A stretch of DNA of 64,000 nucleotides from contig JACJXS010000011.1 in NCBI GenBank assembly GCA_020636545.1, forward strand, positions 1,916 through 65,915. The letters run 5' to 3'. The notes under the pieces are model-generated. The model was not told the DNA's origin, ran no database searches, and worked only from the letters and a program-made list of their open reading frames with translations. The translations under genes were made by a program, and so were the position numbers. How positions within the stretch are numbered: the first letter of the stretch is position 1; every line of letters starts with the position of its first letter. This document shows positions 2,364-24,481 of the stretch, piece by piece. Origin of the DNA: Chitinophagales bacterium (GTDB taxonomy: Bacteria; Bacteroidota; Bacteroidia; Chitinophagales; JADIYW01).

Positions 2364-3494
2364 TTATGAAAAATATTTTTTTAGTACTTGGATTACCACA
2401 TCCACTTCCGATAGATGATTATATTTCGAAAAAGAAAAACGAATATTGATTCTATTGCTATTCGGTCGAATGGCATCAATCACATGCGAACCTGTTGAAG
2501 CTCCACTATTACAAGCACTACCACCACTCGCACAGATACCTTCAATATCTAAATTAAACAACAACATACTAGCGGCATCATTTTCTGGAAAAGATACATT
2601 TAAGACCGTAAATAAACTATTTTTGGAATGGCCATTAAATTGAATATCCTTAAAATTAGCTAATAGCTGTTCTTTAAAATAATCCTTAATAGATTGGATA
2701 TATTGTCTATCTTTCTCCAAATGCTGATAAGCCAACTCAGCAGCTTTGCCCAAACCAACTATGCCATAAACATTTTCAGTTCCAGCTCGATAGCCACGCT
2801 CCTGCCCACCTCCATGTAAGAAAGAAGCCACTTTACTTTTTTTCTTTTGATACAAAAAGCCAATACCTTTTGGTCCATGAAATTTATGTGCTGAAGCAGA
2901 AAGAAAATCCACCTCGACTTTCTGAACATCTATAGGAAAATGTCCAAATGCCTGCACGGTATCAGAATGAAATAAAGCCTGATGTGTTTTACAAAGTTGG
3001 CTTACTTTTTCAAAATCTAAAAGATTACCAATTTCATTATTTGCATACATCAATGATACTAAAGTTTTATCCTGATTGTCTTTTAATAAACTTTCTAAAT
3101 GTTCCAAATCCACCATACCATCGGATAATAATTGCACATACTCAATTTTTACTTGATGGAATTCCTTTAAATAATCTGCAATATGAATCACACAATGATG
3201 TTCTATTGGAGAAGTGATAATCCTTTTAACTTGATGATAAATAACTGCACCTTTTATTGCCATATTATTGGCTTCAGTACCACAAGATGTAAATACAATT
3301 TCAGAAGTTTGGGCATTTAAAATTTGTGCTATCGTTTTTCTTGCAGTCTCAATCGCAGCTCTAGTATCTCGCCCCAAACTATAAACAGATGATGGATTTC
3401 CATAATGCTCATTCAAAAAAGGCAACATTGCCTGTACAACTTCAGGTGCTATAGCAGTTGTCGCAGCATTATCAAAATAAATAGGACTTTTCAA
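2364..3494 (-). CDS. cysteine desulfurase (class V aminotransferase, NifS/IscS-like)
   Basis: PIYFDNAATT N-terminus, PLP-lysine motif SASAHKFHGPKGIG, active-site GGSACNSG loop. Apparent TTG start. Confidence 0.85.
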   Translation of the reverse strand: MKSPIYFDNAATTAIAPEVVQAMLPFLNEHYGNPSSVYSLGRDTRAAIETARKTIAQILNAQTSEIVFTSCGTEANNMAIKGAVIYHQVKRIITSPIEHHCVIHIADYLKEFHQVKIEYVQLLSDGMVDLEHLESLLKDNQDKTLVSLMYANNEIGNLLDFEKVSQLCKTHQALFHSDTVQAFGHFPIDVQKVEVDFLSASAHKFHGPKGIGFLYQKKKSKVASFLHGGGQERGYRAGTENVYGIVGLGKAAELAYQHLEKDRQYIQSIKDYFKEQLLANFKDIQFNGHSKNSLFTVLNVSFPENDAASMLLFNLDIEGICASGGSACNSGASTGSHVIDAIRPNSNRINIRFSFSKYNHLSEVDVVIQVLKKYFS

Positions 3495-10308: not shown

Positions 10309-13300
10309 ATGCTAAAAAATTATGTAATTTATACAAGCTTAGTTTTGTGTTTTTTTATAAGTGGTAATACTTTTGGGCAAAACAAATACAAACTAATTAC
10401 TTCAACATCTGACTTAGTTGCAGGAGATAAGTATATAATTTCTTCAGCACAATCAGATACTTCCGCACAAGTTTTAGGGTATCAAAATACAAATAATAGA
10501 CCACAAGTTACAACTACTGGTGGAGCACCATTTACTGTATCTAGCAGTATAATCACACTCTCTCCAGCAACTGCTAACACTAATACAAATAATCCTTATG
10601 AAATTACGATAGAACAAGGTTCTGATGCAACACACTATTATTTAAAAGACCCTTTACAAACCAACTCATATCTTGTGCCTGCAACAGGAAGCAATAATAA
10701 TAATAATTTAAAAGGTAAAACAGCCCCAGGAGTTAGCGATTGGACTATAACTTTCTCAAGCAATGCTGCGGTTATAACTAATACAGGAGATCCTAATACA
10801 AACGGAAGAAATATCCTAAGATATAATTCAGGTTCTAGTTTATTCAGTTGCTATTCCACTGGACAAGCCGCTGTATATTTATTTCGTAAAGTATTTACAA
10901 TTACCTACGACGGCAATGGTAGTGATGGAGGAACTGTACCAACAGATGCTAGTAGTCCTTATTTTTCTGGCTCTACTGTAACTGTTTTAGGTGCAGGTAC
11001 AATGACAAAAACAGGCAATACTTTTGCCGGATGGGATAGCGACAATGACGGTACTGCAAATTTTACAGGTTCTGGTAGCAAAACATTTAGTATTTCTGCT
11101 AATACTACATTAAAAGCGGTATGGACGCCTAGTGGTTGCACTACACAAACTATAAATCCTATTGCATCATCCGTTACTAAAACGTATGGGGATGTTGCTT
11201 ATAGCGTTGCTACTACTGCTACTTCTAGTTTAACAGTTACCTACTCCAGCAGCAATACAAGTGTGGCTACAGTAGATGCAAGTGGTAACGTAACAATAGT
11301 AGGTGCTGGTACTGCTACCATTACTGCGGCTCAAGCTGGTAATAGTTCATACTGTGCTGCAACATCGCTTACACAGGCATTAACTGTAAATAAAAAAAAC
11401 TTAACAATTACTGGGCTTACTGCCAACGATAAACTATATGACGGAACTACAACGACTACTCTAAATGGTACAGCAACATTAAATGGGGTATTAGCAGGCG
11501 ATGCATCCAATGTTAGCCTTGGCGGAGCTCCTAGTGTCAATTTTAACGATGCAACAATGGCATGCTCTAAGACTGTTACTGTTTCCGGTTACACTATTTC
11601 TGGTTCTGCATCGAGTAATTATTCGCTAACGCAACCATCAGGCTTTACGGCCTGTATAAATGGGATAAGCACTAATAACTCAACTACATTAGGGCCATTT
11701 TGTAATTTTACCAGTAATACTATTGCATTGCCCTACACTGTGGTCGGTTCATTTGCAGGTCAGTATGATATACAAATTTCAAATAGTTCAGGTACTTTCC
11801 CTACAAATGCAACAACACAACTATTAACCTATGTATCCAACTCTGGAGGTATAGTAACAGCTACCTTGCCAGCATCTTATACCACAGGTACAAAATATAG
11901 AGTTAGGGTTGTAAACAGCTCTCCCGCTTTTTATTTATCGGGGAATAATGGCAGCGATTTTACCATTACAGCTGTAGCCACCCCAACGCTAAGTATCACA
12001 TCTTCTCCTGCAGCGGTAGCTGGTACTACTACCATTTGTAGTGGCACGAATGTTACGTTTACAGCCACACCTGCTAGTGTAGGTGGTGGTACAGTATCTT
12101 ATCAATGGAAACTGAATGGCACTAACGTTGGAACAAATAGCAATTCATATAGCAACAATACATTGGCAACTGGCAATACCATAACTTGCGACATTACCAT
12201 AACTGGCGGTTGTGTTACAGCCACCTCTGCCAGCAGCAATACCATTACTATGGCGGTAAATACAACACCCACAAATGACTTGTGTAGCAATGCCGTGGGC
12301 TTAACCGCAAATGCCGCTGCAGTAGGTGGTACAATGACACCATGTGCAGGATTTGAAACGCCTTTCAGTGGTAGTAAAAAAGATGTTTGGTATAAATTTG
12401 TTGCACCTTGTACTGCCGATTATACCATTATCCTTACGGGTTTTACAGGTGATATGGATATGGCATTATTTTACAATAGCAATAGTTGCCCATCATCTAC
12501 TACTACAATAGCAAGCTCAACGACAAGCACTTCCACCGAAACAATAACCCAAGCACTTACGAGTGGCAATACATATTACATTCGTGTTTATGCATTTAAT
12601 ACTACAGCAGAATCGTCAAGTTTCACTATACAGGCTACAGGTATTACTTCCGTTCCAGCACAACCCGACCCAATAGTGGGCGAAACTTCTGTGTGTCCTG
12701 GCTCAAGCCAAACATATACGACCAATCCCGTTGCCGATGCCACCAGCTATACATGGTCAATACCTTCCGGCTGGAATATTACTGCAGGTGCAGGTACTAC
12801 TTCTATTACTGTAACTACTGGCATCAGTGGCGGTACGGTTTCTGTTACCGCCGACAACGGTTGCGGCAGTAGCACCGCCAGAAACTTAGCTGTGAGTATG
12901 TTGGCAATACCTTCTACCCCAACGGCTACGGCAGGTACTGCCATTACGGGTGCTTCTTTTACGGCAAACTGGAACAGCGTTGGTGGCATTACAGACTATA
13001 GTGTAGATGTATATACCTATAGTGCCAATCAAAATATGGCGGTATGGACATTTCCAACAAGTGGTGCAACTACTACCGCAGATATTTATAATGCTAATAA
13101 TAATGGAAAAACAATTACACGACAAGGTGGTGGATCGATAACGGATGTTTCAGGTGCAACCACAAAAGCTGCGAATGGTAATGGTGGCTGGGATGGTGGT
13201 AGTGGCTCTAAATACTGGCAAATAATAATTGACGCTACGGATAGTAAAAATCTTACCTTATCTTCTAAACAATATTCTTCAAATACAGGTCCGAGGGATT

Positions 13301-22166: not shown

Positions 22167-23057
22167 TTATAATAAACCTAAATCACTCAATTTTGATTTA
22201 ATTCTATTGCTTAAATCTTCATTTACTGGCATCAATGGTAATCTAACAGTTTCGCTACAAATTCCTAAATGATGTAATGCACATTTTACACCACCAGGAT
22301 TGCCTTGCTCAAATAACATATTCACTAAATCATCTAAAGCAAAAACTGTTTGTCTCGCATCAGCATAATTACCATCAAGTGCTTGATGTACCATTTCAGA
22401 AAATATTTTTGGAGTAGCATTAGCAATCACAGAGATAACGCCATCATAACCTAAAGAAATCTGAGGAATAATAATATCATCATTTCCAGAAATTAAATAA
22501 AATCCATCAGGTTTATGGTGTGCCAATTCTATAATTTGAGACCAATCAGAAGTTGCCTCTTTTATGGCAATAATATTTTTAAAATTTTCTGCCAATTTAA
22601 GCGTCGTAGAAGCCTTAATATTGCTCGATGTTCTTCCGGGAACATTGTATAAAATCACAGGCAATTCTGTACTTAATGCAATTGTTTTATAATGTTCATA
22701 CAGACCATCTTGAGTTGGTTTATTGTAATACGGAGAAACTGAAAGAATTGCATCAACACCTGATAAGTCAAACTTATTCAAATCAGCAACAATTTTTTGG
22801 GTATAGTTCCCTCCAAATCCAGCAATTACTGGCACTTTTCCAGCTACGTTATTGACTGTTGCTCTAATCATGTCTTGTCTCTCCTCATCGGACATAGTAG
22901 CCACTTCTCCTGTTGTACCTAATACAACAACATAATCGACATGATTTGCAATAACATGCTTACAAAGCTGTTCATATTGATTAAAATCTATCTCACCTTG
23001 TTCATTAAATGGAGTAACTAAAGCTACACCAACACCACGAAGATTAATACTACTCAT
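22167..23057 (-). CDS. dapA: 4-hydroxy-tetrahydrodipicolinate synthase
   Basis: GVGVALVTPF, GTTGE and IKEATSD (Schiff-base Lys) motifs, 296 aa. Confidence 0.9.
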   Translation of the reverse strand: MSSINLRGVGVALVTPFNEQGEIDFNQYEQLCKHVIANHVDYVVVLGTTGEVATMSDEERQDMIRATVNNVAGKVPVIAGFGGNYTQKIVADLNKFDLSGVDAILSVSPYYNKPTQDGLYEHYKTIALSTELPVILYNVPGRTSSNIKASTTLKLAENFKNIIAIKEATSDWSQIIELAHHKPDGFYLISGNDDIIIPQISLGYDGVISVIANATPKIFSEMVHQALDGNYADARQTVFALDDLVNMLFEQGNPGGVKCALHHLGICSETVRLPLMPVNEDLSNRIKSKLSDLGLL

Positions 23058-23298
23058 AAATTGTTTTAAAATGAAGCCCTAATTTCTAAAATTTATTTGA
23101 ATTATCTAAATTTAATTCATTAAATCCATAATAAATATTTTTTTTTAAATGTATTGATTCGTTTAATAAATGCTTGTTCAGGATATTTTATCAATTGATA
23201 TTGTTGAAGTTTGATAGTTTTTAAGTAATATAAAACGTAGTATTGAGAAAAAATATCAAAAAAAATAATACTGAATGTTGTTTTATAAGAAAAAGATA

Positions 23299-23306
23299 TT
23301 ATCTTT
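23299..23306 (+). promoter_or_regulatory. TAnnTTTG -7 box (tatctttg) upstream of tRNA-Asp
   Basis: Exact consensus match, 46 nt upstream of the tRNA 5' end. Confidence 0.4.
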
Positions 23307-23351
23307 GCATTCGCTTTTGGAGTTATTGTTTCAATAGTTTCAGAAACGGAA

Positions 23352-23425
23352 GGTTCGGTAGTTCAGTTGGTTAGAATACATGCCTGTCACGCATGGGGTC
23401 GCGGGTTCGAGTCCCGTCCGGACCG
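23352..23425 (+). tRNA. tRNA-Asp (anticodon GTC)
   Basis: Folded by hand. Acceptor ggttcgg/ccggacc with one G-U pair, D-arm agttcagttggttagaat, anticodon loop ctGTCac, T-arm ggttcgagtcc, discriminator G. CCA is not encoded. Confidence 0.9.
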
Positions 23426-23426
23426 C

Positions 23427-23461
23427 AAAAAAAGTCCTCAAATTTTTGAGGACTTTTTTTA
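23427..23461. terminator. bidirectional rho-independent terminator
   Basis: A-run, then gtcctcaaa-tt-tttgaggac, then a T-run immediately after the tRNA. Confidence 0.8.
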
Positions 23462-23491
23462 TTTTTCTATATTACTTCAATTACTCTATTT

Positions 23492-23755
23492 ATGTATTAT
23501 GTTTATATTTTAGAAAGTTTAGTAGATGGGGATTTTTACAAAGGCTATACTTCTGACTATATCAAAAGACTTAAACAGCATAACGACGGAAATTCAAAGT
23601 TTACTAAATCAAAAATGCCATGGAAGCTTGTTTTTGTTCAATTATTTCAAACTAAAACAGAAGCGTTAATTCATGAGAAAAAGTTAAAAAGAAGTAACAA
23701 AAATTATTTAATTTGGTTGATTAATCAACCTTGTAATATTCTAAATAATTTATAA
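23492..23755 (+). CDS. GIY-YIG nuclease-family protein (small, stand-alone)
   Basis: 87 aa. YVYIL...FYKGYT (GIY/YIG), RLKQHN and EKKLK motifs are typical of the short GIY-YIG family. Confidence 0.8.
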   Translation: MYYVYILESLVDGDFYKGYTSDYIKRLKQHNDGNSKFTKSKMPWKLVFVQLFQTKTEALIHEKKLKRSNKNYLIWLINQPCNILNNL

Positions 23756-23767
23756 TTCTTATTAGTT

Positions 23768-23821
23768 TACATGCCTGTCATCTCGCCTAAGGCGAGACGG
23801 ATTCGAGTCCCGTCCGGACCG
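23768..23821 (+). pseudogene. partial tRNA-Asp copy (anticodon-stem/loop fragment plus T-arm and 3' acceptor strand)
   Basis: tacatgcctgtca matches 23377-23389. ttcgagtcccgtccggaccg matches 23406-23425. The intervening 17 nt are replaced by a 21-nt stretch, most of which forms a hairpin (tctcgcc-taa-ggcgaga). There is no 5' acceptor or D-arm. Confidence 0.85.
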
Positions 23822-23822
23822 C

Positions 23823-23856
23823 AAAAAAAGTCCTCAAATTTTTGAGGACTTTTTTT
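23823..23856. terminator. second, identical copy of the tRNA terminator hairpin
   Basis: A 59-bp block (23802-23860) is identical to 23406-23464 and includes this hairpin. Confidence 0.8.
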
Positions 23857-23915
23857 ATTTAAATTACTCTATGGAATTCCTACTAAATTTGAGCCTAAAA
23901 ATGTCCATTAAGACT

Positions 23916-24347
23916 TTATTGCTGTTCTGTCAAAATCTCTACCGTCCTTCTGTCATACTTCCCTTTAAAAAATTTCGCTAGTACTTTTTCAAACACATTA
24001 TCTAGATTTTCTTCATCTGCAATGGCAAATAAAGTCATGCTGGAATGCAGTTTCATATCATCTGGATTGTCAAAAATCAAAGTGGCATCATCGGTATCTT
24101 GCATAAGCAACACATTAGATATTTCTCTCAACCGCTTACCTAAAATTCCATGTTGTAAATATGCTTTCGCTTCTTCAAGATTTTTTATAGCATAAAACTT
24201 TGAGACTTCACTAAAACCCAATCCAGAAATCTGAGGAAAGATAAACCACATCCAATGGCTAGTTTTATAACCTGCCTGCATTTCAGCTAAAGCAATGGCA
24301 TATTGTTTTTCCTGAGCTTCTATGTATCGGTTTAAATTAAAATTCAT
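23916..24347 (-). CDS. DUF1810-family protein
   Basis: NLNRYIEAQ...HWMWFIFPQISGLGFS motif characteristic of DUF1810, 143 aa. Confidence 0.7.
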   Translation of the reverse strand: MNFNLNRYIEAQEKQYAIALAEMQAGYKTSHWMWFIFPQISGLGFSEVSKFYAIKNLEEAKAYLQHGILGKRLREISNVLLMQDTDDATLIFDNPDDMKLHSSMTLFAIADEENLDNVFEKVLAKFFKGKYDRRTVEILTEQQ

Positions 24348-24481
24348 GGCTACTCATACTTATTCTAAAAAATAAATAGCTATTACGGAATATTATCAAT
24401 GGAATTCCAACTAAATTCGGGATTAAACTTTTCGGACAGCCTCTTTTTATTATTTTTCTATGTTGCATTTAGAAAACTCTG

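What the first reader, a model, noticed from the sequence alone, without database searches (positions are those of the whole stretch)
23377..23860. GIY-YIG nuclease gene carried in a cassette bounded by direct repeats of the tRNA-Asp 3' portion and its terminator
Downstream of an intact tRNA-Asp and its terminator lies an 87-aa GIY-YIG gene. After it comes a second partial tRNA-Asp that starts at the anticodon stem/loop (tacatgcctgtca), followed by a 59-bp block identical to the T-arm, acceptor strand and terminator (23802-23860 = 23406-23464). Between the two matching parts, the 17-nt anticodon-stem 3' strand and variable region is replaced by 21 nt, most of which forms a new hairpin (tctcgcc-taa-ggcgaga). 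Duplication that begins at the anticodon loop is the classic scar of insertion into a tRNA gene. Here, however, the insert is only ~380 bp, and its sole gene is a nuclease rather than an integrase. That suggests a minimal homing-type mobile cassette that targets tRNA 3' regions.
Basis: partly seen in the sequence, partly recalled or inferred. Interest (0 to 1): 0.65.

Follow-up and report, generated by a model that had tools for sequence, protein, structure and literature searches.

The report
Nuclease-plus-palindrome cassette living in tRNA genes
A tiny nuclease gene sits beside the tRNA-Asp gene next to a broken tRNA copy carrying a conserved DNA palindrome, and the same arrangement recurs at many different tRNA genes across bacterial phyla, which suggests an undescribed selfish element that copies itself through tRNA homology.

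Summary
Window 23352-23872 holds an intact tRNA-Asp, a terminator, an 87-aa GIY-YIG ORF, a disrupted tRNA-Asp copy and an identical second terminator.

TCTCGCC-NNN-GGCGAGA sits at the same tRNA position in about 20 Chitinophagaceae genome loci and 71 metagenome loci. Related palindromes (TCCCGAC...GTCGGGA) replace 10-20 nt of partial tRNA copies beside homologous ORFs at Pro, Val, Ser, Met, Asn and Glu genes in several phyla.

- Of 80 homologous loci, 54 have a tRNA or tmRNA within 300 nt, and 53 of those are on the same strand.
- The disrupted copy lies upstream or downstream of the ORF, often in tandem arrays.
- In sludge metagenomes the cassette is 2.4-4.7 times deeper than its flanks, and one contig shows two tandem units. 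The single copy in the window is therefore probably a collapsed array.
- Orthologous accA-tRNA-Asp loci in relatives are empty.
- Element identity does not track host identity (r=0.11).

Best reading: a selfish, homology-dependent homing or amplifying cassette run by a minimal Slx1/UPF0213-type nuclease. The closest known analogue is phage SegB. The role of the palindrome is unresolved. I found no description of this arrangement in the literature.

The parts
23300..23307 (+). Bacteroidota-type -7 promoter box (TATCTTTG) upstream of the tRNA-Asp unit
   Evidence: Read directly from the sequence. The same TATCTTTGCC motif precedes the first tRNA or tRNA* unit in the related loci. Assigning it as a promoter is an inference from the known Bacteroidetes TAnnTTTG consensus.
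23352..23426 (+). Intact tRNA-Asp (GTC), the one functional unit of the array
   Evidence: ARAGORN. Rfam tRNA model, 66.5 bits, E=6.5e-14.
23427..23460 (+). Terminator 1 (A7-stem-T7 hairpin), first copy of the repeat
   Evidence: Terminator scan. Inverted repeat I5.
23446..23473 (+). Possible internal promoter for the ORF, overlapping terminator 1 (TTGAGG-16-TATATT)
   Evidence: Consensus scan, 9 of 12 matches. Metatranscriptome contigs start at 23468-23487. This evidence is weak.
23492..23755 (+). 87-aa minimal GIY-YIG nuclease (UPF0213 / Slx1-like)
   Evidence: Pfam PF01541, E=2.2e-15. PDB hits 1zg2 and 1ywl (UPF0213) and SLX1. Y5, Y16, R26 and H30 are invariant and E62 nearly invariant. The ORF is transcribed.
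23762..23780 (+). 5' remnant of the disrupted tRNA-Asp copy (tRNA*), positions ~20-37 ending in the anticodon loop CTGTCA
   Evidence: Repeat D4. blastn, 13 nt at 100%. Full-length equivalents occur in L012 and L003.
23781..23797 (+). Conserved 17-bp palindrome TCTCGCC-TAA-GGCGAGA, replacing tRNA positions 38-48
   Evidence: The same palindrome is at the same junction in L001-L022 and in 71 metagenome loci. The loop is A/T polymorphic within populations.
23798..23822 (+). 3' part of tRNA* (T-arm and acceptor 3' strand)
   Evidence: 63-nt repeat D1. RNA contigs end at 23815-23823.
23823..23856 (+). Terminator 2, identical to terminator 1
23479..23489 (+). AATTACTCTAT, host-flank motif repeated at 23862-23872. 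It marks the end of the tandem duplication unit.
   Evidence: Repeat D5. In contig L086 the T-TTCTATATTACTTCAATTACTCTAT junction follows a tRNA* and a second ORF follows it.
23862..23872 (+). Second copy of AATTACTCTAT at the distal end of the array, next to DUF1810

Best explanation
The locus is one member of a widespread, apparently undescribed kind of selfish cassette that lives in bacterial tRNA and tmRNA genes. Each unit has three components. The first is a minimal stand-alone GIY-YIG nuclease of 70-90 aa (Slx1/UPF0213 type) with no DNA-binding domain. The second is a copy of the resident tRNA gene in which 10-20 nt are replaced by a conserved GC-rich palindrome (tRNA*). The third is an intact copy of the same tRNA kept next to it, so the host loses nothing.

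Shown here: the architecture, its conservation, its link to tRNA genes, tandem copy-number variation, empty orthologous sites, lack of co-divergence with the host, and transcription.

Inferred: the nuclease makes a nick or break at the tRNA unit. That break is either in the native tRNA sequence that the palindrome replaces, or at the extruded palindrome or cloverleaf, which would fit a structure-specific enzyme. The break is then repaired by homologous recombination. The only homology required is the tRNA sequence itself, on both sides of the ORF.

Repair off an element-bearing template copies palindrome, ORF and tRNA half into a naive tRNA gene (homing). Out-of-register repair between sister copies expands or contracts the array. 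This would account for arrays with exactly one native unit at either end, and for the element appearing at many tRNA identities with nearly the same protein and palindrome.

In this window the order is promoter, tRNA-Asp, terminator, then [ORF, tRNA*, terminator] repeated about 3 times.
For: Nuclease:
- GIY-YIG domain with conserved catalytic Tyr, Arg, His and Glu.

tRNA linkage:
- 54 of 80 genome loci have a tRNA or tmRNA within 300 nt, 53 on the same strand, covering 16 identities.
- Partial copies 100% identical to the neighbouring tRNA flank the ORF in Bacteroidales, Cytophagales, Saprospiraceae, Opitutales, Zixibacteria and CPR loci.

Palindrome:
- Palindromes of the TCYCG.../...CGRGA type occur at 0.81/kb within 450 nt of the ORF, against 0.032/kb elsewhere. 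48 of 80 loci have one.
- 71 metagenome loci carry the Asp junction. Most have the ORF within 400 nt on the same strand, in the orders hp-ORF-tRNA, tRNA-ORF-hp or hp-tRNA-ORF.

Arrays and copy number:
- Arrays occur in L002 (ONT assembly), L005, L011, L074 and L033, including ORF-less units.
- Contig L086, from the same species as the window, has two tandem units.
- Cassette depth is 2.4-4.7 times the flanks in six runs, with three tRNA* SNP variants each at about 1x.

Mobility:
- The orthologous accA-tRNA-Asp site is empty in L096 and L097.
- The order of ORF and tRNA* differs between Hydrotalea flava and H. sandarakina.
- The window's nearest relatives (78-82% identity) have the opposite order, in other genomic contexts.
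- accA and GIY-YIG pairwise identities are uncorrelated, r=0.11. Host pairs at 90% accA carry different element subtypes.

DNA-level behaviour of the palindrome:
- Loop triplets occur as reverse-complement pairs at near-equal frequency.

Expression and precedent:
- RNA covers the ORF and tRNA* but not the upstream spacer.
- The GIY-YIG enzyme SegB cuts inside tRNA genes and drives recombination-dependent segmental amplification (PMC13096335; PMC2330249).
Against: - No cleavage activity, target or transfer event has been observed. Everything here is comparative.
- The intact tRNA beside the ORF would remain cleavable under a simple homing model.
- The same palindrome replaces different tRNA arms in different lineages, which a pure "cleavage site replaced, therefore immune" model does not explain.
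- Many Chitinophagaceae carry the cassette at the same orthologous tRNA-Asp locus. That is also compatible with long vertical residence.
- 26 of 80 homologues, mostly Firmicutes and some CPR, have no tRNA within 300 nt, so the whole protein family is not tRNA-bound.
- No homologue was found in IMG/VR viral contigs, so no vector for horizontal spread is identified.
- In the window both repeats, including host flank, are identical. That fits local tandem duplication as well as it fits homing.
Confidence: 0.6

Rival explanations
1. The cassette is a host accessory gene of the tRNA operon. A housekeeping Slx1-like repair or RNA-processing nuclease is co-transcribed with tRNAs, and the neighbouring tRNA pseudo-copies are decayed tandem duplicates with no role in mobility.
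For: - Same strand as the tRNA, tight spacing, and in many loci the ORF stop codon lies inside the tRNA 5' end.
- Same orthologous accA/dapA-tRNA-Asp locus in many genera.
- Transcribed at levels like its neighbours.
- The UPF0213 family is very large, with 27,031 clusters.
Against: - Empty orthologous sites.
- Frameshifted or stop-containing ORF copies in L005, L020 and L050.
- Tandem arrays and copy-number variation within a population.
- The same palindrome accompanies the ORF at 10 or more tRNA identities in several phyla.
- Element identity is uncorrelated with host identity.
Confidence: 0.15
2. The system acts at the RNA level. tRNA* would be a tRNA-mimic RNA (antitoxin, decoy or regulator) working with the nuclease as an RNase, in the manner of type III toxin-antitoxin (ToxIN-like) repeat arrays or an anti-anticodon-nuclease decoy.
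For: - Tandem tRNA* repeats sit upstream of the ORF, with terminators between them (L074, L033, L003).
- tRNA* is transcribed and its RNA appears to end at the tRNA-like 3' end.
- L100 is a stand-alone tRNA* with its own promoter and terminator.
- A Slx1-like domain fused to TrmH was noted in PMC1564403.
Against: - No PADLOC hit.
- tRNA* is truncated at very different points, and in the window it lacks the acceptor 5' strand, so no common RNA fold is preserved.
- The loop flips freely, which points to DNA-level palindrome behaviour.
- tRNA* always copies the local tRNA, which is expected from recombination rather than from a travelling antitoxin.
- tRNA* lies downstream of the ORF as often as upstream.
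Confidence: 0.12
3. The arrangement is a classical integrase-type insertion scar. On this view the partial tRNA-Asp plus terminator is an attR-like remnant of a genomic island that integrated into the tRNA and later decayed, leaving the GIY-YIG gene as cargo.
For: - Direct repeat of the tRNA 3' part, as at att sites.
- tRNA-Asp is used by a tyrosine-integrase island in L097 and L098.
Against: - No integrase or island genes are present in any of more than 150 loci with the palindrome.
- The repeat includes the terminator and host flank.
- The disrupted copy is often upstream and 5'-complete.
- The palindrome is conserved.
- Tandem arrays occur.
Confidence: 0.03

Closest known systems
Free-standing GIY-YIG homing endonuclease SegB of T-even phages (and the seg genes generally)
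   Same: - A GIY-YIG nuclease gene embedded among tRNA genes, with a statistical association with tRNAs of many isotypes.
- It cuts inside tRNA genes.
- It spreads with flanking sequence by recombinational repair.
- It drives unstable tandem segmental amplification of the nuclease-plus-tRNA unit (PMC2330249; PMC13096335).
   Different: - SegB is a phage protein of about 220 aa with DNA-binding modules, from the I-TevI/UvrC branch.
- The protein here is an 87-aa chromosomal Slx1/UPF0213-type domain with no extra module.
- No palindrome-bearing disrupted tRNA copy is described for SegB.
- No homologue of this ORF was found in viral contigs.
Prokaryotic Slx1-like / UPF0213 stand-alone GIY-YIG proteins (BH0048 1zg2, EF2693 1ywl, E. 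coli YhbQ)
   Same: Same fold and family by sequence (E=3.9e-17 and 1.2e-13). This is the minimal nuclease domain. Eukaryotic Slx1 is a structure-specific nuclease that maintains tandem rDNA copy number (PMC1564403).
   Different: The family is annotated only as a predicted repair nuclease. The literature searched does not describe any linkage to tRNA genes, partial tRNA copies or a cognate palindrome.
Integrative elements that target tRNA genes and restore them with a carried tRNA segment
   Same: The element occupies a tRNA gene yet leaves one intact copy, by duplicating part of the tRNA. Direct repeats of tRNA sequence bound the insert.
   Different: There is no integrase. The duplicated segment may be the 5' or the 3' part. 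The second copy carries a palindrome substitution. The unit is 0.35-0.45 kb and tandemly repeated.
Hairpin-dependent elements: IS200/IS605 with TnpA, and REP/REPIN with RAYT
   Same: A short conserved hairpin or palindrome travels with a small nuclease-type gene. There are ORF-less, MITE-like derivative units.
   Different: Those elements use HUH/Y1 transposases, have hairpins at both ends, and do not depend on tRNA homology. Here there is one palindrome per unit, inside a tRNA copy, with a hydrolytic GIY-YIG enzyme.

Membership tests
GIY-YIG nuclease superfamily, Slx1/UPF0213 branch | GIY and YIG motifs, catalytic Arg, His/Asn and Glu in a ~70-aa alpha/beta domain | tested here: met
   Pfam PF01541, 57 bits against a cutoff of 22.6. 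Y5, Y16, K17, R26 and H30 are invariant, and G18, N31 and E62 are at least 90% conserved. Best PDB relatives are the UPF0213 proteins 1zg2 and 1ywl, followed by SLX1.
GIY-YIG nuclease superfamily, Slx1/UPF0213 branch | Nuclease activity, structure-specific for Slx1 | not testable with these tools
   Needs purified protein.
Free-standing homing endonuclease genes (Seg-like) | Presence/absence polymorphism of the nuclease gene at an otherwise homologous locus | tested here: met
   The accA-promoter-tRNA-Asp-terminator locus has no ORF or palindrome in L096 and L097/98, and is occupied in L002, L004, L007, L012, L017, L019, L021, L094 and L175.
Free-standing homing endonuclease genes (Seg-like) | Enzyme cleaves the nuclease-less allele near the insertion point, and the donor allele is resistant | not testable with these tools
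   Only indirect evidence: the palindrome replaces native tRNA sequence in the copy next to the ORF.
Free-standing homing endonuclease genes (Seg-like) | Sequence-specific DNA-binding module attached to the nuclease domain | tested here: not met
   The protein is 87 aa. The domain spans residues 1-71 and only a ~16-aa conserved tail follows.
Free-standing homing endonuclease genes (Seg-like) | Horizontal spread independent of host phylogeny | tested here: inconclusive
   accA and GIY-YIG identities are uncorrelated (r=0.11) and element subtypes are discordant with hosts. The protein is short and no formal tree reconciliation was done.
Integrase-type tRNA-targeting islands | Tyrosine or serine integrase adjacent to the tRNA | tested here: not met
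   No such ORF lies between dapA and DUF1810, and none is in the related loci except the unrelated island in L097.
IS200/IS605-like hairpin transposons | HUH/Y1 TnpA and subterminal hairpins at both ends | tested here: not met
   The only ORF is GIY-YIG. There is a single palindrome per unit.
Group I intron in a tRNA anticodon loop carrying a GIY-YIG gene | Ribozyme core, with the tRNA interrupted and restored by splicing | tested here: not met
   Rfam E-value scan finds only the tRNA. An uninterrupted tRNA is present, and the second copy lacks nt 38-48.
Type III toxin-antitoxin (ToxIN-like) | Tandem RNA repeats, terminator, then an endoRNase toxin. The repeats are element-specific. | tested here: inconclusive
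   Arrays and terminators exist. However, the repeats copy the local tRNA, the ORF may precede them, and there is no PADLOC match.

The most novel reading that the evidence does not exclude
This would be a categorically new class of minimal mobile element. It would consist of a 70-90-aa structure-specific GIY-YIG nuclease and its cognate palindrome. It would have no sequence-specific targeting of its own. Instead it would exploit the cloverleaf or hairpin-forming DNA and the universal homology of tRNA and tmRNA genes to home into, and tandemly amplify at, any tRNA gene. It would always regenerate one intact gene, and it would be spread across Bacteroidota, Patescibacteria, Zixibacteria, Verrucomicrobiota and others.
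Probability: 0.35. Interest if true: 0.9.

Novelty: new variant of a known kind. Interest (0 to 1): 0.78.

Why it matters
- It would give a function and a natural substrate to part of a very large orphan family. The UPF0213/Slx1-like stand-alone GIY-YIG proteins form about 27,000 clusters at 50% identity.
- It would add a chromosomal, integrase-free way of colonising tRNA genes.
- It would explain recurrent tRNA pseudo-copies, odd "tRNA-???" calls and N-terminally over-extended ORF calls next to tRNAs in Bacteroidota and CPR genomes.
- It would explain why short-read assemblies break or collapse at these loci.
- A minimal nuclease with a defined 17-bp palindrome is an easily testable biochemical system.
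- The parallel with SegB-driven amplification suggests a general link between GIY-YIG nucleases and tRNA gene dynamics.

Tried and rejected
- Rfam E-value scan of 22900-24400: only the tRNA scored, the rest were chance-level terminator matches.
- PADLOC: no hit. NCBIfam: nothing meaningful. PHROGs: only weak endonuclease hits.
- IMG/VR scan with the protein alignment: no relatives.
- Looking for an empty site through dapA orthologues at 80-82% identity failed, because synteny is not kept there. The accA route worked.
- Raw-read runs X23 and X24 do not contain this organism. Logan k=31 unitigs cannot resolve an empty-site junction, because the repeat is 63 nt. No Nanopore or PacBio run was listed.
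- A single odd joint (23431 to 23800, one contig, depth 10.6) was not pursued.
- Six literature searches for GIY-YIG combined with tRNA gene, partial, truncated or adjacent terms, and for UPF0213/YhbQ, returned nothing describing this arrangement.
- I checked whether conserved flanking dinucleotides define a target for the palindrome. I found none across tRNA types.
- I considered whether the palindrome is an excision footprint or a terminal inverted repeat pair. I rejected this because the ORF is never between the arms.
Full report
**1. What is in the window**

Between dapA (22167-23057, minus strand) and a DUF1810 gene (23916-24347, minus strand) lie the following features, all on the plus strand:
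- a Bacteroidota-type -7 box (TATCTTTG, 23300-23307);
- one intact tRNA-Asp(GTC), 23352-23426 (ARAGORN; Rfam 66.5 bits);
- an A7-stem-T7 terminator, 23427-23460;
- a 31-nt spacer;
- an 87-aa ORF, 23492-23755, that matches Pfam GIY-YIG (E=2.2e-15);
- a disrupted tRNA-Asp copy, which I call tRNA*;
- a second, identical terminator, 23823-23856.

With one mismatch the long repeat is 63 nt. What separates the two repeats is therefore 12 native nucleotides (tRNA positions 38-48/49) replaced by the 17-nt palindrome TCTCGCC-TAA-GGCGAGA (23781-97). In other contigs of the same species the mismatch is absent. Weaker similarity extends 5' to 23762, and 3' beyond the terminator (AATTACTCTAT, 23479-89 and 23862-72). 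This is the only GIY-YIG ORF and the only tRNA in the 64 kb.

**2. The protein**

It is a bare GIY-YIG domain. Y5, Y16, K17, R26 and H30 are invariant, and G18, N31 and E62 are at least 90% conserved across 33 homologues. A short conserved tail (YLxWLIxQPxNILN) follows. A profile of the family hits the UPF0213 proteins 1zg2 (E=3.9e-17) and 1ywl, then eukaryotic SLX1. This is the Slx1-like stand-alone branch of Dunin-Horkawicz et al. 2006 (PMC1564403), not the I-TevI/Seg branch. The family is very large, with 27,031 clusters at 50% identity at E<=1e-3. PADLOC and NCBIfam give nothing specific.

**3. Comparative anatomy: the decisive evidence**

*Association with tRNA genes.* A scan of one genome per species returned 173 relatives, and I examined the best 80. 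In 54 of them a tRNA or tmRNA lies within 300 nt of the ORF, and in 53 of those it is on the same strand. Sixteen tRNA identities and tmRNA are represented.

*Close orthologues.* In the Chitinophagaceae orthologues (60-80% identity, L001-L022) the usual order is promoter, tRNA*, ORF, intact tRNA-Asp, terminator. The ORF stop codon is often the TAG at tRNA positions 8-10, so the proteins end in ...LDR*.

*The palindrome.* Every one of these loci contains the palindrome TCTCGCC-NNN-GGCGAGA, at exactly the junction seen in the window (...CTGTCA | palindrome | CGGGTTCG...). A Lentimicrobiaceae locus (L023) has the window's gene order, with a longer stem carrying compensatory changes (TCTCGTCTCGTCA-TTGG-TGACGAGACGAGA). 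A subgroup (L019, L021, L022, L050) has the same palindrome inserted in the D-arm instead.

*Metagenomes.* An exact-pattern scan for the Asp junction gave 71 loci. Most have the ORF within 400 nt on the same strand, in three orders: palindrome-ORF-tRNA, tRNA-ORF-palindrome, or palindrome-tRNA-ORF. Arrays are frequent. A few units lack the ORF, and one full-length tRNA* stands alone.

*Other tRNAs and phyla.* The pattern is not confined to tRNA-Asp or to Chitinophagaceae. The ORF is flanked by segments 100% identical to the adjacent tRNA beside homologues at:
- tRNA-Pro in Bacteroidales and Cytophagales;
- tRNA-Val in Saprospiraceae;
- tRNA-Asn in Opitutales;
- tRNA-Ser in Zixibacteria and Ignavibacteria;
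- tRNA-Met and tRNA-Glu in CPR;
- tRNA-Asp in Sunxiuqinia.

In these loci a GC palindrome of the type TCCCGAC-N3-5-GTCGGGA replaces part of the tRNA copy: the D-loop, the anticodon arm or the T-loop. Palindromes with the base TCYCG/CGRGA occur at 0.81/kb within 450 nt of the ORF, against 0.032/kb in the rest of the same loci. 48 of 80 loci have at least one. Nuclease, palindrome and a copy of the local tRNA therefore travel together.

**4. Dynamics**

*Within the window's own species.*
- Contig L086 (k=141 assembly) carries two tandem [ORF-tRNA*-terminator] units.
- In six activated-sludge DNA runs the cassette unitig (23435-23788) is 2.4-4.7 times deeper than either flank.
- The shared 59-mer has the depth of the cassette plus one.
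- Up to three SNP variants of tRNA* are each at about single-copy depth.
- Both loop variants (TAA and TTA) coexist.

The single cassette in the window is thus most likely a collapsed array of about 3 units.

*Other arrays.* Arrays are also resolved in a Nanopore-based MAG (L002: tRNA*-ORF-tRNA*-tRNA*-tRNA) and in L005, L011, L033 and L074. Two assemblies that encode the identical protein differ by an extra partial tRNA plus terminator (L171 against L172).

*Between species.* The tRNA-Asp locus is orthologous: dapA-accA-tRNA-Asp in Hydrotalea, and accA-tRNA-Asp in 14 loci. That site is empty in L096, where accA is 86% identical to H. flava. In L097/98 it carries a tyrosine-integrase island instead. 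H. flava and H. sandarakina have accA 93% identical. Yet they differ in the order of ORF and tRNA*, and their ORFs are only 66% identical.

Over 91 locus pairs, accA and GIY-YIG identities are uncorrelated (r=0.11). For example, L002 and L019 have accA at 90% but GIY-YIG at 66%, with the palindrome at different tRNA positions. L019 and L021 have accA at 77% and GIY-YIG at 77%, with the same palindrome position. The window's closest ORF relatives (82% and 78%) have the opposite gene order and lie next to accA or a LytTR regulator.

*Loop flips.* Loop triplets of the Asp palindrome occur as reverse-complement pairs at nearly equal frequency: TGA 23 / TCA 23, TAA 14 / TTA 12, TGG 11 / CCA 7. Six complete pairs were seen among 19 loop types, where 2.7 are expected (P about 0.009). 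This shows DNA-level flip-flop of the palindrome. It argues against a loop-specific RNA function.

**5. Expression**

Four metatranscriptomes give contigs over the ORF and tRNA* at depths like dapA and DUF1810. They give none over the promoter-proximal spacer 23112-23303. The RNA contigs start at 23468-23487, just after a promoter-like TTGAGG-16-TATATT that overlaps terminator 1. They stop at 23815-23823, which is the tRNA-like 3' end and lies before the point (23831) where a k=31 unitig would have to break. Depths are low (3-5), so the end positions are only suggestive.

**6. Interpretation**

The details need revision. The partial tRNA is not a crossover scar but a conserved component. The hairpin is the family signature. 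The disrupted copy can lie on either side of the ORF. The unit is tandemly amplified.

The most economical model is an array of tRNA units separated by the ORF, with exactly one native unit and the others carrying the palindrome. The array would be propagated by nuclease-induced breaks that are repaired through tRNA homology.

The experimental precedent is phage SegB. It is a GIY-YIG enzyme associated with tRNA genes of many isotypes. It cuts inside tRNA genes, is inherited preferentially, and drives recombination-dependent, unstable tandem amplification of the segB-tRNA segment (PMC2330249; PMC13096335).

What is new here:
- the enzyme branch (a minimal Slx1/UPF0213 domain with no DNA-binding module);
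- the chromosomal setting across several phyla;
- the obligatory palindrome-bearing tRNA copy.

An almost invariant small protein and palindrome occur at many tRNA identities and at different positions within the tRNA. I therefore infer that specificity comes from nucleic-acid structure and homology rather than from protein-DNA sequence reading. This step is inference only.

**7. Rivals**

- A host tRNA-operon accessory gene (confidence 0.15).
- An RNA-level tRNA-mimic or toxin-antitoxin-like system (0.12).
- An integrase scar (0.03).

An assembly artefact is excluded. The arrangement recurs in isolate genomes (Hydrotalea flava, H. sandarakina, Huijunlia, Fulvivirga, Sunxiuqinia) and in a long-read assembly.

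**8. Novelty**

Six full-text searches found no description of UPF0213/GIY-YIG genes linked to partial tRNA copies or to this palindrome. Rfam has no family for tRNA*. I rate the finding as a new variant of a known kind (free-standing GIY-YIG homing or amplifying elements at tRNA genes). I give it a 0.35 chance of being a categorically new, structure- and homology-guided class.

Noticed in passing
window 23435-23860; L086: The assembly of this window almost certainly collapses a tandem array. Cassette depth is 2.4-4.7 times the flanks in six metagenomes, and many contigs of this species break inside the 63-nt repeat (L082, L083, L085).
   Followed up: yes
L001, L004, L175 and other loci with the ORF upstream of the intact tRNA (around locus position 3250-3270): The ORF stop codon is the TAG at tRNA positions 8-10, so the proteins end in ...LDR*. 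RNase P cleavage at tRNA +1 would therefore remove the stop codon from the mRNA. This could be a built-in limit on nuclease expression.
   Followed up: partly
P0076 and many hits with 20-40 extra N-terminal residues: Gene callers extend these ORFs upstream through the tRNA* (for example MVRMLPCH...), and they fuse tandem ORFs into 150-210-aa proteins. These are annotation artefacts diagnostic of the element.
   Followed up: partly
L056 2880-3000; L069 2854-3000 and 3208-3321: Homologues next to tmRNA genes lack the TCCCG palindrome. They carry inverted copies of the tmRNA 3' end and flank (GGCGAAGTGGTGGA) on both sides of the ORF. This may be a different flavour of the same strategy.
   Followed up: no
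L025, L035, L043, L047 (tRNA at ~3250-3335): Four Cytophagia loci have a tRNA-Pro that ARAGORN calls with anticodon AGG (loop TTAGGGA). A34 is unusual for bacterial tRNA-Pro.
   Followed up: no
L097/L098 812-2065: In one Sphingobacteriia lineage the same orthologous tRNA-Asp is followed by a tyrosine-integrase island. The two kinds of tRNA-targeting element thus use the same gene.
   Followed up: no
L012 2887-2930 versus 3346-3390: In Hydrotalea flava the two terminators differ. The one after the intact tRNA resembles the terminator at the empty site of L096. The one after tRNA* resembles the ACCCGCT-CTGGT-AGCGGGT terminator of other genera (L004, L017, L020). This suggests the cassette arrived with foreign tRNA-flanking sequence.
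   Followed up: partly
L100 ~11500-11720: A full-length palindrome-bearing tRNA-Asp-like gene with its own promoter box and terminator. No ORF or intact tRNA lies within 1.3 kb.
   Followed up: no
L087 3450-4321: A DUF6922/AbiEii pair sits next to dapA in a relative of the window organism. It is unrelated to the finding.
   Followed up: no
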